A DNA stretch of 64,000 bases, from the NCBI RefSeq assembly GCF_058153355.1, contig NZ_CM177019.1. One strand, written 5' to 3'. Position 1 is the stretch's first letter; every line of letters begins with the position of its first letter. The position numbers and the translations under genes were made by a program. Under the pieces are notes generated by a model that searched no databases, was not told where the DNA came from, and saw nothing but the letters and a program-made list of their open reading frames with translations. Below are positions 20,185 to 53,841 of this stretch, one piece after another.

Positions 20185-21393
20185 GTGAAACGACTACAAG
20201 CATTTAAATTCCAGTTAAGACCAGGTGGTCAACAGGAGCGTGAAATGAGGCGCTTCGCAGGCGCATGTCGTTTCGTTTTCAATCGTGCTCTGGCACGTCA
20301 GAATGAGAATCATGAGGCCGGTAATAAATACATCCCTTACGGGAAAATGGCTTCCTGGCTGGTTGAGTGGAAAAATGCCACTGAAACGCAATGGCTTAAA
20401 GATTCGCCCTCACAGCCATTGCAACAGTCACTGAAAGACCTTGAGCGGGCTTACAAAAACTTCTTCCAGAAGCGGGCTGCTTTTCCCCGATTCAAAAAGC
20501 GGGGACAGAATGATGCATTCCGCTACCCGCAGGGCGTTAAGCTCGATCAGGAAAACAGCCGTATTTTTCTGCCGAAACTGGGCTGGATGCGCTACCGGAA
20601 CAGCCGTCAGGTCACGGGTGTTGTGAAAAATGTCACGGTCAGCCAGTCCTGCGGTAAGTGGTACATCAGTATTCAGACAGAAAGTGAAGTATCCACTCCG
20701 GTTCATCCTTCAGCATCAATGGTCGGGCTGGATGCTGGCGTGGCTAAACTCGCCACGCTGTCAGATGGCACAGTCTTTGAGCCTGTAAACAGTTTTCAGA
20801 AAAACCAGAAGACGCTGGCGAGACTTCAGCGACAGTTAAGCCGCAAGGTCAAATTCAGCAACAACTGGCAGAAGCAGAAACGCAAAATACAGCGACTGCA
20901 TTCCCGTATCGCAAATATCCGCAGGGACTACCTTCACAAAGTCACAACGACCGTCAGCAAAAACCACGCAATGATAGTCATTGAGGATTTGAAGGTCAGC
21001 AACATGTCAAAGTCAGCAGCGGGTACGGTCAGCCAGCCGGGGCGCAATGTCCGGGCAAAATCAGGTTTAAACCGTTCGATACTGGATCAGGGCTGGTATG
21101 AAATGCGCCGCCAGCTTGAGCACAAGCAGCTCTGGAGTGGCGGTCAGGTGCTTGCTGTTCCGCCAGCGTACACAAGCCAGCGTTGCGCGTGCTGTGGTCA
21201 TACAGCGAAAGAAAACCGCCTGTCACAAAGTAAATTCAGATGCCAGGTATGTGGATATACAGCGAACGCCGATGTAAATGGCGCTCGTAACATTTTAGCG
21301 GCGGGGCACGCCGTTCTTGCCTGTGGAGAGATGGTGCAGTCAGGCCGCCCGTTGAAGCAGGAACCCACCGAAATGATTCAGGCGACAGCCTGA
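20185..21393 (+). CDS. tnpB: TnpB (IS605 OrfB), RuvC-like RNA-guided endonuclease; intact; GTG start
   Basis: 402-aa ORF; N-terminus resembles TnpB; C-terminal zinc finger CxxC...CxxC ([37 protein letters not shown]) and RuvC-like segments. Confidence 0.85.
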
Positions 21394-43160: not shown

Positions 43161-43331
43161 GATAGTGCTCCACAAAGGTTATATTTGTTGCTGTGGCGTC
43201 ACTATAATTTGTTATTTTATTATTTGCAAAAGGTAAAATATAAACTTCATTTATTAAAAATACGAATGGGAATAAAACGCATTACCGCTATTTATTTAAT
43301 CAGCGAAGATCCCCCTCGCTGATTAAAACGT

Positions 43332-43655
43332 TTAGAGAAAGACAGGGAAGGCGGAATGATGGCACTGATATGACAAAGTGAATTCCGTATTCAAACATAA
43401 GGAACCCGCAAAGAGGCTACAGTTGCCTACTGGCTGACCAAAGGGGATAGCGTGGGTATAGCCTTCCTGCTGGCATGCGCGATCGGCGATCCCGCGACTG
43501 ACATAACGATCGGTACGGGCATGCTGCAAAAAAGCCTGATCATAAACCAACCGAACAATACCTGTTGCCGCGTCAACTTCGCCCACATGAGCCTGGCGAG
43601 TAACTGTGCACCCCGCCAGCGTTATTAATGAAAGAGTCAGAATCAGAAGTCTCAT
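43332..43655 (-). CDS. yecR: Lipoprotein YecR
   Basis: 107-aa ORF with lipobox (LAGC); synteny. Confidence 0.6.
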   Translation of the reverse strand: MRLLILTLSLITLAGCTVTRQAHVGEVDAATGIVRLVYDQAFLQHARTDRYVSRGIADRACQQEGYTHAIPFGQPVGNCSLFAGSLCLNTEFTLSYQCHHSAFPVFL

Positions 43656-43819
43656 GGTCCAGCCAGAAGAGTAAAAGAAAGCAGTATTTTACGCGTTACA
43701 GCGCTGCGACAATGGCCGGAAAAGACGCCTGGCAGGCGCTATTTCTCGCCATCTGTATGTGTCAGAAATGGGGGTGCTGCTTTTTGATTATCATTTTTAT
43801 AACATTAAAGGGGTATTTG

Positions 43820-43835
43820 TGTGATTTGCATCACA
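43820..43835. promoter_or_regulatory. CRP-type palindrome TGTGATTTGCATCACA upstream of azuC
   Basis: Perfect TGTGA-N6-TCACA half-sites about 85 bp upstream of the azuC ATG. Confidence 0.6.
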
Positions 43836-43917
43836 TAAAGATTGATTTTTGTGATGGTTGTCATATTATAAGTGCAAAGACAATAACACCTGCATAACAA
43901 ATAGTCGGAGTGCCGCG

Positions 43918-44004
43918 ATGAAACTGCGCAAGATCCTGAAAAGTATGTTCAATAACTATTGCAAGACGTTCAAAGACGTACCGCCAGGCAATATGTTCAG
44001 ATAA
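43918..44004 (+). CDS. azuC: Small membrane-associated protein AzuC (28 aa); its mRNA is also the AzuCR/IsrB regulatory RNA
   Basis: atgaaactgcgcaagatcctgaaaagtatgttcaataactattgcaagacgttcaaagacgtaccgccaggcaatatgttcagataa encodes MKLRKILKSMFNNYCKTFKDVPPGNMFR; followed by terminator hairpin aaaaacctgctccggcaggttttttt. Confidence 0.8.
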   Translation: MKLRKILKSMFNNYCKTFKDVPPGNMFR

Positions 44005-44118
44005 CAAAAAACCTGCTCCGGCAGGTTTTTTTGTGTCCTGATGACGGTGGTTGTGACTATCGCTGAAGAAGTGAAGCCGCTACTATAACGGCTTTCAAAA
44101 TGCTATCAGGAGTTTACG

Positions 44119-44370
44119 ATGTCCCAGCCGCTGAATGCCGATCAGGAACTGGTTTCTGACGTGGTTGCTTGCCAGTTGGTTATCAAACAAATTCTCGACG
44201 TTCTGGATGTAATCGCGCCCGTTGAAGTTCGCGAAAAAATGTCCAGCCAGCTGAAGAATATCGACTTTACTCACCATCCCGCCGCCGCAGACCCGGTCAC
44301 CATGCGGGCAATCCAAAAAGCCATCGCGCTGATTGACCTCAAGTTTACCCCACAGGGCGAATCCCATTAA
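44119..44370 (+). CDS. yecJ: Small protein YecJ
   Basis: 83-aa ORF; synteny. Confidence 0.7.
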
Positions 44371-44447
44371 AAAACCGCTGCTTCAAAAAGATGAGGCAGC
44401 GGTTTCTCAAAAACTTCATCGGCGCAATGCATTAGCGCCGATGATGA

Positions 44448-44951
44448 TCAATGCAGCTGATGCGACACGACATTCAGAACATGTTGGTCGGTCTGCACAG
44501 GGCACATACCAGCAAGTTTCGCACTGCGCACTTCATCAAGAATGGTTTGCAGCAACAGGCCATCATGCTGCTGCTCTTTTTCCAGATCGCGCAGGAAATT
44601 GACGGTTGAATCATCATTCAGTTCTTTAGCTTCATCGGCTAACTGTGCCAGCGTGCTTGAACGTTGCTCGTATTCTTCCATCGTTTTTTGGAAAAGTTCT
44701 TCCAGTGAGTTCAGTTTTTCACCGGGAACATCAATGGCTTTAACAATGGGAGTAGCGCCGACACTCTTCATAAAGTTAAACATGCGCATCATTTGGGTCA
44801 CGTTACTCTGTGCCTGGGCGCGAAGGAAAGTGGCGGTGCCGTTCAGACTCTGTTCAGAACACCAGTTACTCAGGTGAAGGTAGAGATTGGATGCGTAAAA
44901 CTCGCGGTTCATTTGAGAGTTGAGTTTGAGAAGCATTCCAGCGGTTGCCAT
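44448..44951 (-). CDS. ftnB: Ferritin-like protein FtnB (YecI)
   Basis: 167-aa ORF paralogous to ftnA. Confidence 0.88.
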
Positions 44952-51700: not shown

Positions 51701-52129
51701 TTAATCTCCCGTAAGTGGAACTAACAGCACATCGACCTCACTTGAGGCAATCACTCTTTTCGCCGAGCAGGATGCTCGCGAAAAGAAACTGTGATTGTGA
51801 TTACCGCAAATCACCAAATCGAAATGATGTTTGCGACAAACCTCCAGAATATGTTCGCTTAACTCACCGTAGGCAATAAACGTTTCGTCAACGGGATACC
51901 CCGCATCCTGAATTAACTTATCAAGAAAGCTTTGCGTTTCTTCCTGCATCACGCTGCGTAAATCTTCAAGCATCGGCGCGGCTAATTGATTGTACATTTC
52001 CGGGTCGGAAGCGAGAGTAATTAAACTGATGTGTCCCTTTACTGGCCTGGCGATAGATACCGCTTTTGCTAGCAGTTGCTGACTTTCCGGTGTAACCGCA
52101 ACGGCGACAAGAATATTGCTATAGCTCAT
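51701..52129 (-). CDS. uspC: Universal stress protein UspC
   Basis: 142-aa Usp-family ORF. Confidence 0.88.
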   Translation of the reverse strand: MSYSNILVAVAVTPESQQLLAKAVSIARPVKGHISLITLASDPEMYNQLAAPMLEDLRSVMQEETQSFLDKLIQDAGYPVDETFIAYGELSEHILEVCRKHHFDLVICGNHNHSFFSRASCSAKRVIASSEVDVLLVPLTGD

Positions 52130-52631
52130 AACCTGTTCCTTATTCTGTGAACTTCAGGTGACATTAAAGCTTTACTCCTAATGGAGAATCGACGCAATCC
52201 CAACTCAGTCAAACAGGTAAATATTAGTGTGATTATTAGTAAATACAATTAATCAATCACTCTCGGTGATCATATGATTTCAACTGTAATTATAAGAAAA
52301 TAATGTACTGATTCTCCATATCAAACAAGTGGTTAATATATGTAAAACATTTTATTAACATTAAGTTGATTGTTGCCTTTCTTTGTATTTAATTAGTTTG
52401 TTGTGCGGTAAGTGTCTGTTTAAAAATAGCTTATCGGGTATTGCATTAAAGCAATTATTTATAGCAGATGATTATTTACGGTGAGTTATTTTAACTGTGC
52501 GCAACATCCCATTTCGATTATTCCTGTTTCATTTTTACTTGCTATCGTAGCGAAAAACTTTTTAACAGATTGAAATACACCCAAAACAAAAGTATGACTT
52601 ATACATTTATGTTAAGTAATTGAGCGTTTTG

Positions 52632-52647
52632 TGTGATCTGCATCACA
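52632..52647. promoter_or_regulatory. CRP site TGTGATCTGCATCACA in the flhDC regulatory region
   Basis: Perfect TGTGA-N6-TCACA palindrome about 265 bp upstream of the flhD start; flhDC is a known CRP-activated class 1 operon. Confidence 0.75.
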
Positions 52648-52909
52648 CATTATTGAAAATCGCAGCCCCCCTCCGTTGTATGTGAGTGTAGTGACGAGTA
52701 AAGTTGCGTCGATTTAGGAAAAATCTTAGATAAGTGTAAAGAACCCCTTCTATTTGTAAGGACTTATTAAATCCAAAAAAGGGGCTCTGCCTATTGCAGC
52801 TTATCGCAACTATTCTAATGCTAATTATTTTTTACCGGGGCTTCCCGGCGACATCACGGGGTGCGGTGAGACCGCATAAAAATAAAGTTGGTTATTCTGG
52901 GTGGGAATA

Positions 52910-53260
52910 ATGCATACCTCCGAGTTGCTGAAACACATTTATGACATCAACTTGTCATATTTACTACTTGCACAGCGTCTGATTGTTCAGGACAAAGCGT
53001 CCGCAATGTTTCGTCTCGGCATAAATGAAGAAATGGCGACAACGTTAGCGGCACTGACTCTTCCGCAAATGGTTAAGCTGGCAGAAACCAATCAACTGGT
53101 TTGTCACTTCCGTTTTGACAGCCACCAGACGATTACTCAGTTGACGCAAGATTCCCGCGTTGACGATCTCCAGCAAATTCATACCGGCATCATGCTCTCA
53201 ACACGCTTGCTGAATGATGTTAATCAGCCTGAAGAAGCGCTGCGCAAGAAAAGGGCGTGA
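52910..53260 (+). CDS. flhD: Flagellar master regulator subunit FlhD (116 aa from [15 protein letters not shown])
   Basis: ORF 52901..53260 trimmed to the canonical start. Confidence 0.93.
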
Positions 53261-53262
53261 TC

Positions 53263-53841
53263 ATGAGTGAAAAAAGCATTGTTCAGGAAGCGCGGGATAT
53301 TCAGCTGGCAATGGAATTGATCACCCTGGGCGCTCGTTTGCAGATGCTGGAAAGCGAAACACAGTTAAGTCGCGGATGCCTGATAAAACTCTATAAAGAA
53401 CTGCGCGGAAGCCCACCGCCGAAAGGCATGCTGCCATTCTCAACCGACTGGTTTATGACCTGGGAACAAAACGTTCATGCTTCGATGTTCTGTAACGCAT
53501 GGCAGTTTTTACTGAAAACCGGCTTGTGTAATGGCGTCGATGCGGTAATCAAAGCCTACCGTTTATACCTTGAACAGTGCCCGCAAGCAGAAGAAGGACC
53601 GCTACTGGCATTAACCCGTGCCTGGACATTGGTACGGTTTGTTGAAAGTGGATTACTGCAACTTTCCAGCTGCAACTGCTGCGGCGGCAATTTTATTACC
53701 CACGCTCACCAGCCTGTTGGCAGCTTTGCCTGCAGCTTATGTCAGCCGCCATCCCGGGCAGTAAAAAGACGTAAACTTTCCCAGAATCCTGCCGATATTA
53801 TCCCACAACTGCTGGATGAACAGAGAGTACAGGCTGTTTAA
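53263..53841 (+). CDS. flhC: Flagellar master regulator subunit FlhC (192 aa)
   Basis: ORF with Zn-binding cysteines (CNCCGGNF...CSLC). Confidence 0.93.
53772..53798 (+). promoter_or_regulatory. sigma28 promoter inside the 3' end of flhC, candidate class 3 promoter for motAB-cheAW
   Basis: TAAACTTT-N11-GCCGATAT matches the sigma28 consensus at 7/8 and 7/8 positions. Confidence 0.6.

What the first reader, a model, noticed from the sequence alone, without database searches (positions are those of the whole stretch)
43820..43835. Near-identical CRP palindromes upstream of azuC and flhDC
The 16-mers TGTGATTTGCATCACA (azuC, 43820..43835) and TGTGATCTGCATCACA (flhDC, 52632..52647) differ at a single spacer base and share flanking bases (gtGTGAT.TGCATCACAt). 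This suggests the small-protein/sRNA gene azuC and the flagellar master operon receive near-equivalent CRP input in this region.
Basis: partly seen in the sequence, partly recalled or inferred. Interest (0 to 1): 0.3.

Follow-up and report, generated by a model that had tools for sequence, protein, structure and literature searches.

The report
Known CRP sites at azuC and flhDC
Both palindromes are real, near-perfect binding sites for the sugar-sensing regulator CRP, but both were already catalogued, and they act in opposite directions: CRP switches azuC off and the flagellar master operon flhDC on.

Summary
TGTGATTTGCATCACA (43820-43835) and TGTGATCTGCATCACA (52632-52647) are the only two perfect TGTGA-N6-TCACA sites in the window (0.06 expected). 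They are also the two best hits of a CRP weight matrix.

The gene assignments are right: azuC/AzuCR and flhDC. Both sites are already curated in RegulonDB, as reproduced in Shimada 2011:
- azuC: CRP repressor sites at -48.5 (this palindrome) and -18.5 (TGTGATGGTTGTCATA, 43850-43865).
- flhDC: CRP activator site at -71.5.

My mapping of the K-12 start sites onto the window gives the same positions. In Shimada 2011, the azuC (yecJ/yecR) spacer was the most abundant CRP SELEX clone. AzuC and isrB rise in crp mutants.

"Near-equivalent CRP input" therefore holds only for predicted affinity. The regulatory sign is opposite.

The resemblance beyond the consensus is coincidental:
- In K-12 the two 16-mers differ at three positions.
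- Across Escherichia species the half-sites are nearly invariant, but the central four bases vary freely.
- The flanking G at 43819 occurs in none of 5,426 complete E. coli genomes.

The azuC palindrome also coincides with a published FNR repressor site, so it is probably a hybrid CRP/FNR operator.

Verdict: already known, low interest.

The parts
43820..43835 (.). azuC CRP site 1, TGTGATTTGCATCACA, centred at -48.5 of the AzuCR start. Equals K-12 1,988,042-1,988,057. Also the published FNR motif position.
   Evidence: sequence, chance, matrix score. RegulonDB lists an azuC repressor site at -48.5. FNR binding site at 1,988,042-058; half-sites conserved across Escherichia.
43850..43865 (.). 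azuC CRP site 2, TGTGATGGTTGTCATA, centred at -18.5. It overlaps the spacer and the -10 hexamer, and lies 30 bp centre to centre from site 1.
   Evidence: one mismatch to the core. (11.0 bits, fifth best in the window). (RegulonDB repressor site at -18.5). (spacing invariant, left half-site less conserved).
43842..43869 (+). azuC sigma-70 promoter: TTGATT (43842-43847), 16-bp spacer, TATTAT (43864-43869).
   Evidence: The -10 hexamer ends 6 nt before the mapped start at 43876.
43876..44034 (+). AzuCR (IsrB/AzuR) dual-function RNA. The 5' end at 43876 equals K-12 1,988,001.
   Evidence: azuR ncRNA annotated at 1987843-1988001. (alignment to K-12). (Raina 2022 gives the start at 1988001).
43919..44005 (+). 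azuC coding sequence (28 aa, MKLRKILKSMFNNYCKTFKDVPPGNMFR).
   Evidence: One search gives a Pfam PF28150 AzuC hit at the orthologous gene.
43332..43655 (-). yecR, the divergent neighbour. It is a lipoprotein gene and a known FlhDC target.
43788..43819 (.). Strongly conserved block just upstream of site 1. It holds a NarL/NarP-type heptamer, TACCCCT on the minus strand at 43809-43815, and corresponds to the published NarP site.
   Evidence: conservation. (NarP 1,988,060-076, which equals window 43801-43817).
52632..52647 (.). flhDC CRP site, TGTGATCTGCATCACA, centred at -71.5 of the flhDC start (class I position).
   Evidence: (RegulonDB: flhDC activator at -71.5; also recovered by SELEX-chip). 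(alignment to K-12).
52711..52711 (+). flhDC transcription start, transferred from K-12 1,978,395. The 5' UTR is 199 nt here.
   Evidence: site centre plus 71.5, with no indels in between; no strong sigma-70 consensus, as expected for an activator-dependent promoter.
52910..53841 (+). flhD (52910-53260) and flhC (53263-53841).

Best explanation
The palindrome at 43820-43835 is the upstream, high-affinity member of a pair of cAMP-CRP operators that shut off the azuC/AzuCR promoter when glucose is absent. The pair is centred at -48.5 and -18.5, 30 bp apart.

Proposed mechanism at azuC:
- Site 2 covers the spacer and the -10 hexamer, so CRP bound there excludes RNA polymerase.
- Site 1 abuts the -35 hexamer at a position that does not match the class I or class II activating positions.
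- Site 1 most likely acts as the strong anchor that raises occupancy of the weaker site 2 and blocks contacts of the polymerase alpha subunit's C-terminal domain.
- The same palindrome (GTGAT-N4-ATCAC, 8 of 10 matches to the FNR consensus) is apparently also used by FNR for anaerobic repression. That makes it a hybrid CRP/FNR operator.

The palindrome at 52632-52647 is the well-known class I CRP activator site at -71.5 of flhDC.

The two sites look alike because both sit close to the CRP consensus TGTGAT-N4-ATCACA. The extra shared bases (TGC in the centre, TTTG on the 5' side) are coincidental.

Shown, by literature or here:
- The sequence, its position and its conservation.
- CRP binding to the DNA fragment.
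- crp-dependent repression of azuC and activation of flhDC.

Inferred:
- Which of the two azuC sites does what.
- Any cooperativity between the two azuC sites.
- Competition between CRP and FNR at site 1.
For: - Sequence and chance.
- Matrix ranks the two sites first and second in the window.
- Start-site mapping: the K-12 azuR 5' end at 1,988,001 aligns to window 43876, which puts the sites at -48.5 and -18.5. These are the same values RegulonDB gives, with 'repressor'.
- Promoter hexamers TTGATT-16-TATTAT at 43842-43869.
- CRP SELEX: the yecJ/yecR spacer was the most abundant clone (59 clones). SELEX-chip lists both azuC 16-mers and the flhDC 16-mer.
- Expression: AzuC and AzuCR are high in glucose and up in a crp deletion. 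isrB is up in a crp mutant.
- flhDC: activator site at -71.5, and CRP is required.
- Phylogenetic footprint over 9 sequences from E. coli, E. albertii, E. marmotae and two other Escherichia lineages. The half-sites TGTGAT/ATCACA change in 1 of 12 columns. All 4 central columns vary (TTGC, TTGT, TCGC, GCAG, GCAT, TCAG). There are no indels between site 1, site 2 and the -10.
- FNR: a ChIP-seq peak assigned to yecR, and a mutationally tested FNR site at 1,988,042-058, the same bases as the palindrome.
Against: - No experiment I could read dissects site 1 from site 2.
- Ekdahl 2025 report that the main occupancy changes, measured by their IPOD-HR protein-occupancy method, lie 'further upstream' of the annotated CRP sites. 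Yet their FNR coordinates equal site 1, so the ligand in vivo under their conditions is ambiguous.
- Some RegulonDB promoters carry activator sites near -49.5 to -53.5 (aer, trg, feaR). The position -48.5 alone therefore does not prove repression.
- Site 2's left half-site is not well conserved (TGCGA and TATGA in two lineages).
Confidence: 0.88

Rival explanations
1. One reading: azuC and flhDC receive near-equivalent CRP input and so are co-regulated in the same direction, because the operators are nearly identical.
For: The two 16-mers differ at one low-information spacer base. Their matrix scores are within 0.4 bit. Both are recovered by CRP genomic SELEX.
Against: The positions differ: -48.5 with -18.5 at azuC, against -71.5 at flhDC. 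The curated modes are opposite, repressor against activator. AzuC and isrB go up in a crp mutant, whereas flhDC needs CRP.
Confidence: 0.03
2. The azuC palindrome is physiologically an FNR operator, possibly also a PhoP one, and not a CRP operator. The CRP annotation would be only a motif prediction.
For: [quoted passage not shown] By my conversion from the flhD coordinates, that peak centre lies within about 50 bp of the palindrome.
- Ekdahl 2025 place FNR at 1,988,042-058 and PhoP at 1,988,046-063. Mutating these sites derepressed isrB.
- The site matches TTGAT-N4-ATCAA at 8 of 10 positions.
Against: - The site carries G, not T, at the position that distinguishes CRP (GTGA) from FNR (TTGA). 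This distinction rests on my own knowledge of Bell et al. 1989.
- It is a perfect CRP core and exceeds all 57 training sites in CRP matrix score.
- It was the top CRP SELEX clone in vitro.
- crp-dependent repression is documented.
- The two roles are not exclusive.
Confidence: 0.07
3. The two sites are similar by common descent or by micro gene conversion between the two loci 8.8 kb apart.
For: There is a 20-nt block at 19/20 identity. The two bases where this window differs from K-12 at azuC (G43819, C43829) both match the flhDC sequence.
Against: - No similarity exists outside the 20-nt block.
- The base between the two variant positions (43826, T vs C) is not converted.
- The C allele exists without the G (strain 120899) and is shared with E. 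albertii, so the changes were stepwise.
- Twelve of the 16 bases are simply the CRP consensus.
- The central bases differ freely among species at both loci.
Confidence: 0.01
4. The palindrome acts as an RNA hairpin (6-bp stem, 4-nt loop) in a long yecR leader transcribed from a start near 43857 on the minus strand.
For: A perfect TATAAT lies on the minus strand at 43865-43870. Myers 2013 place the FNR site at +30 of a yecR start. The central 4 nt vary like a loop.
Against: The stem bases never covary. They are invariant and equal the CRP consensus. An identical palindrome sits at flhDC -71.5, where it is not transcribed. Protein binding is documented.
Confidence: 0.01

Closest known systems
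RegulonDB/EcoCyc azuC (isrB) promoter CRP sites at -48.5 and -18.5 (Hemm et al. 2010; Raina et al. 2022)
   Same: The locus, the positions and the half-sites are all the same. The window site is the orthologue of K-12 1,988,042-1,988,057.
   Different: Two single-base alleles differ: the spacer is TTGC here and TTGT in K-12, and the 5' neighbour is G here and A in K-12. The G is absent from 5,426 complete E. coli genomes. The matrix predicts no functional consequence, 15.0 against 15.8 bits.
flhDC class I CRP activator site at -71.5 (Soutourina et al. 1999; RegulonDB)
   Same: The locus and the position are the same.
   Different: The window carries the perfect right half-site ATCACA. That is the majority E. 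coli allele, exact in 3,843 genomes. K-12 has ATCACG, exact in 401 genomes and about 3 bits weaker.
Hybrid CRP/FNR sites (e.g. Salmonella pepT; the guaB, ptsH and uxaB overlaps in Myers 2013)
   Same: One palindrome of the type GTGAT-N4-ATCAC is reported as a target of both regulators.
   Different: At azuC both proteins would repress. At pepT the hybrid site activates. Competition between the two at azuC has not been tested.

Membership tests
cAMP-CRP binding site | Two-fold symmetric TGTGA-N6-TCACA core within a 22-bp site | tested here: met
   Both sites have a perfect core plus the T6/A11 consensus bases. Matrix scores are 15.0 and 15.4 of a possible 16.9 bits.
cAMP-CRP binding site | Lies in a promoter region at a defined distance from a mapped transcription start | tested here: met
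   The azuC site is at -48.5 of the start at 43876, and the flhDC site is at -71.5 of the start at 52711. Both were obtained by alignment to annotated K-12 starts and match RegulonDB.
cAMP-CRP binding site | Half-sites under purifying selection while the spacer is free to vary | tested here: met
   In 9 Escherichia sequences, 1 of 12 half-site columns varies at azuC while all 4 central columns vary. The flhDC site shows a similar but weaker pattern: 2 of its 12 half-site columns and 2 of its 4 central columns vary.
cAMP-CRP binding site | Physical binding by cAMP-CRP | not testable with these tools
   From the literature: the yecJ/yecR spacer was the top SELEX-clos clone with 59 clones. SELEX-chip lists both azuC sites and the flhDC site.
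cAMP-CRP binding site | crp/cAMP-dependent expression of the adjacent gene | not testable with these tools
   From the literature: azuC is repressed and flhDC is activated.
Class I CRP-activated promoter (the flhDC type) | Single CRP site centred near -61.5, -71.5, -82.5 or -92.5 | tested here: not met
   flhDC meets this at -71.5. azuC does not: its sites are at -48.5 and -18.5, and the latter overlaps the -10.
FNR binding site (hybrid CRP/FNR) | Match to TTGAT-N4-ATCAA | tested here: inconclusive
   GTGATTTGCATCAC matches 8 of 10 positions, with G/C rather than T/A at the discriminating outer positions (sequence). The flhDC site has the same match.
FNR binding site (hybrid CRP/FNR) | FNR occupancy in vivo, and an effect of mutating the site | not testable with these tools
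   From the literature: a ChIP-seq peak assigned to yecR, and a mutated FNR site at 1,988,042-058 that derepressed isrB.

The most novel reading that the evidence does not exclude
Most natural E. coli carry a flhDC CRP site with exactly the same half-sites (GTGAT...ATCAC) as the azuC palindrome, and that palindrome is reported to bind FNR in vivo. FNR might therefore also compete with CRP at flhDC -71.5 and lower flagellar expression anaerobically in wild isolates. K-12 has the weaker ATCACG allele, which could hide such an effect. In that reading the two look-alike sites would be a pair of hybrid CRP/FNR switches with opposite CRP sign.
Probability: 0.08. Interest if true: 0.35.

Novelty: already known. 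Interest (0 to 1): 0.08.

Why it matters
It matters little beyond bookkeeping. Both operators, their positions and their regulatory signs are already in RegulonDB and the primary literature.

The useful corrections are these:
- Similar operator sequence does not mean equivalent regulation. CRP represses azuC and activates flhDC.
- The one-base difference seen here is a strain-level coincidence, not a conserved design.

One minor by-product may interest people who extrapolate K-12 motility regulation to wild strains. The K-12 flhDC CRP site is an atypical, weaker allele. The perfect half-site is exact in 3,843 of 5,426 complete genomes, against 401 for the K-12 allele.

Tried and rejected
- Rfam scan of 43300-44500 found no family at gathering score, so it gave no independent boundary for IsrB/AzuCR.
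- Hemm et al. 2010, the primary source for CRP repression of azuC, and the EcoSal small-proteome review are not held. I relied on Raina 2022, on the RegulonDB table in Shimada 2011 and on a 2025 preprint.
- The single genome-contig scan with YecR returned only 2 loci. The YecR homologue search found only Escherichia proteins. Footprinting is therefore limited to the genus, and I could not test Salmonella or Citrobacter. One 60%-identical YecR-like gene (L010) sits next to a ferritin gene without azuC and was not used.
- Gene conversion or duplication between the two sites was considered and rejected (see rivals).
- The mechanical ORFs that overlap the site, 43628-43897 (+) and 43805-43900 (-), are rejected as genes. 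The spacer shows indels that are not multiples of three (4, 7 and 11 nt) among close relatives.
- The simple promoter scan finds no sigma-70 consensus at flhDC. This fits an activator-dependent promoter but is not informative by itself.
- The third-best matrix hit (20622-20637) lies inside an IS200/IS605 tnpB gene and was dismissed as chance.

Full report
**1. Observation**

- They are the only perfect TGTGA-N6-TCACA cores in the 64-kb window. Dinucleotide-preserving shuffles give 0.06 on average, and 0 of 100 shuffles reach 2.
- Allowing one mismatch adds three sites. One is TGTGATGGTTGTCATA at 43850-43865, only 30 bp from the azuC palindrome.
- I built a symmetrised CRP weight matrix from 57 other RegulonDB sites, with the azuC and flhDC sites left out. 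It ranks the two palindromes first and second in the window, at 15.4 and 15.0 bits of a possible 16.9. These scores exceed every training site, and no site reached them in 30 shuffles.
- The central four positions carry only 0.03-0.12 bit each, so the one-base difference has no predicted effect.
- The flank claim is half right. Both sites follow TTTG, but the 3' neighbour is T at azuC and C at flhDC.

**2. What is there**

Megablast against 5,426 complete E. coli genomes, together with their annotation, identifies the region:

| Gene(s) | Strand | Window coordinates |
|---|---|---|
| yecR | - | 43332-43655 |
| azuC | + | 43919-44005 |
| yecJ | + | 44119-44370 |
| ftnB | - | 44448-44951 |
| araFGH, otsBA | + | between ftnB and uspC |
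| uspC | - | 51701-52129 |
| flhD | + | 52910-53260 |
| flhC | + | 53263-53841 |

The window is 95-99% identical to most E. coli in the azuC region, and at best 99.3%.

*The azuC promoter.*
- K-12 annotates the AzuR/AzuCR RNA at 1,987,843-1,988,001. Raina et al. 2022 give the same start.
- Aligned to the window, this start is 43876.
- It sits 6 nt downstream of a TTGATT-16-TATTAT promoter at 43842-43869.
- The palindrome is therefore centred at -48.5 and the second site at -18.5.

*The flhDC promoter.*
- The RegulonDB value of -71.5 puts the start at 52711.
- That leaves a 199-nt leader. K-12 has 198 nt, and the window has a 1-nt insertion.

**3. What is already known**

RegulonDB, as reproduced in Table S4 of Shimada et al. 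2011, lists the following:

| Target | Mode | Position | Sequence (K-12) |
|---|---|---|---|
| azuC | repressor | -18.5 | TGTGATGGTTGTCATA |
| azuC | repressor | -48.5 | TGTGATTTGTATCACA |
| flhDC | activator | -71.5 | TGTGATCTGCATCACG |

These are the same positions I derived independently.

- *Binding.* In Shimada's genomic SELEX the yecJ/yecR spacer was the single most abundant CRP-bound clone, with 59 clones. The SELEX-chip table lists both azuC 16-mers and the flhDC 16-mer.
- *azuC regulation.* Raina et al. 2022, citing Hemm et al. 2010, state that AzuC-SPA is higher in glucose than in glycerol because of CRP-mediated repression, and that it is elevated in a crp deletion. AzuCR RNA behaves as a CRP-repressed transcript. 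A 2025 preprint reports isrB up in a crp mutant by RT-PCR.
- *flhDC regulation.* CRP activation of flhDC is textbook.

They show opposite signs at the two promoters.

**4. Is the near-identity meaningful?**

Twelve of the sixteen bases are simply the extended consensus TGTGAT-N4-ATCACA. The question is whether the extra shared bases (TGC in the centre, TTTG on the 5' side) are selected. They are not.

*Alleles within E. coli.*
- K-12 has aTGTGATTTGTATCACA at azuC and TGTGATCTGCATCACG at flhDC, which is three differences.
- The genome closest to the window (E200086) has the T allele at azuC.
- Strain 120899 has the C allele but an A flank.

*Counts among 5,426 complete genomes.*

| Locus | Allele | Genomes with exact match |
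|---|---|---|
| azuC (67-mer) | K-12 allele (A flank, TTGT) | 2,278 |
| azuC (67-mer) | C allele (A flank, TTGC) | 742 |
| azuC (67-mer) | window allele (G43819, TTGC) | 0 |
| flhDC (55-mer) | ...CACA | 3,843 |
| flhDC (55-mer) | K-12 ...CACG | 401 |

*Across species.* The comparison used E. coli, E. albertii, E. marmotae, Escherichia sp. E3659 and strain E69 (loci; alignment).
- The azuC half-sites are invariant except for one base in one genome.
- The centre reads TTGC, TTGT, TCGC, GCAG, GCAT or TCAG.
- The flhDC centre reads CTGC, CTGA or CCGT.

This is the footprint expected of a CRP site: half-sites constrained, spacer free. It gives no evidence that the two sites are kept alike.

Strain E69 carries TGTGATGCAGATCACA at azuC. 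That is the window's flhDC 16-mer in the opposite orientation, a further sign of chance convergence.

**5. Mechanism**

*At flhDC.* CRP at -71.5 is a class I activator. This is shown in the literature, and the position is confirmed here.

*At azuC.*
- Site 2 (-26 to -11) overlaps the spacer and the -10 hexamer, so bound CRP should exclude RNA polymerase.
- Site 1 (-56 to -41, or -59 to -38 as a 22-mer) abuts the -35 hexamer.
- From my own knowledge of Gaston et al. 1990, -48.5 is out of phase with the activating positions -41.5 and -61.5.
- I infer that site 1 is the high-affinity anchor. It holds CRP on the promoter, helps fill the weaker site 2 (11.0 against 15.0 bits, 30 bp away with invariant spacing) and blocks contacts of the polymerase alpha subunit's C-terminal domain.
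- Which site is necessary, and whether binding is cooperative, has not been tested in anything I could read.

*Caveats.*
- RegulonDB lists a few activator sites near -50 at other promoters.
- Site 2's left half-site is degenerate in two lineages.

**6. An extra layer: FNR**

- Ekdahl et al. 2025 place a mutationally supported FNR repressor site at K-12 1,988,042-1,988,058. These are the same bases as the palindrome, 1,988,042-1,988,057.
- They also place PhoP and NarP motifs overlapping it or just upstream.
- Myers et al. [quoted passage not shown] The peak centre is 1,986,025 in the older K-12 coordinates, and the top FNR site lies at +30 of a yecR start. By my conversion from the flhD coordinates, that peak centre is close to the AzuCR start and within about 50 bp of the palindrome.
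- The palindrome matches TTGAT-N4-ATCAA at 8 of 10 positions.

The most economical reading is a hybrid CRP/FNR operator. This does not rescue 'equivalent input'. It adds another difference between the two promoters, unless FNR also binds the flhDC site, which has not been reported.

**7. Verdict**

Everything essential is already catalogued, so novelty is 'already known' and interest is low.

The most novel reading left open is FNR competition at the majority-allele flhDC CRP site. It is speculative.

Noticed in passing
window 43788-43819: The block immediately upstream of azuC CRP site 1 is almost invariant across five Escherichia lineages, while the rest of the yecR-azuC spacer diverges with indels. 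It holds a NarL/NarP-type heptamer (TACCCCT, minus strand 43809-43815) and corresponds to the NarP site 1,988,060-076 of Ekdahl 2025.
   Followed up: partly
window 43865-43870 (minus strand): A perfect TATAAT lies on the minus strand, back to back with the azuC -10. It would give a yecR start near 43857. That fits the Myers 2013 'FNR site at +30 of the yecR TSS' if the FNR motif is the palindrome. The two CRP sites would then also lie at about +1 and +30 of a long yecR leader.
   Followed up: partly
window 43332-43918 (yecR and the yecR-azuC spacer): yecR is a known non-flagellar FlhDC target, and a FlhDC genomic-SELEX peak lies in the isrB/yecR spacer. CRP activates flhDC 8.8 kb away, FlhDC activates yecR, and strong CRP sites sit in the same spacer. 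This is a possible feed-forward arrangement.
   Followed up: no
window 52647; K-12 NC_000913.3 1,978,459: The last base of the flhDC CRP site is polymorphic. The perfect half-site ATCACA is exact in 3,843 of 5,426 complete E. coli genomes, and K-12's ATCACG in only 401. The matrix difference is about 3 bits, so K-12 carries an atypical, weaker CRP site at the flagellar master operon.
   Followed up: partly
window 43819: The G just 5' of the azuC palindrome occurs in none of 5,426 complete E. coli genomes; the best match to the 67-mer is 98.5%. The window as a whole is at most 99.3-99.8% identical to any of them in the regions tested. Its source is an Escherichia coli-like lineage not represented in that collection.
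   Followed up: partly
window 20622-20637: The third-best CRP matrix hit (TGTGAAAAATGTCACG, 12.6 bits) lies inside an IS200/IS605-family tnpB (insQ) coding region. It is probably a chance match.
   Followed up: yes
window 52130-52630: No insertion sequence lies upstream of flhDC here. MG1655 carries IS1H starting about 108 bp upstream of the flhDC start. The native uspC-flhDC spacer is intact.
   Followed up: partly
L003 (E. coli 120899), yecR-azuC spacer, aligned to window about 43783-43796: A homopolymeric G tract of about 13 bases replaces GGGGGTGCTGCTTTTTG, with a 4-nt length change. This is a variable tract in the yecR leader region.
   Followed up: no
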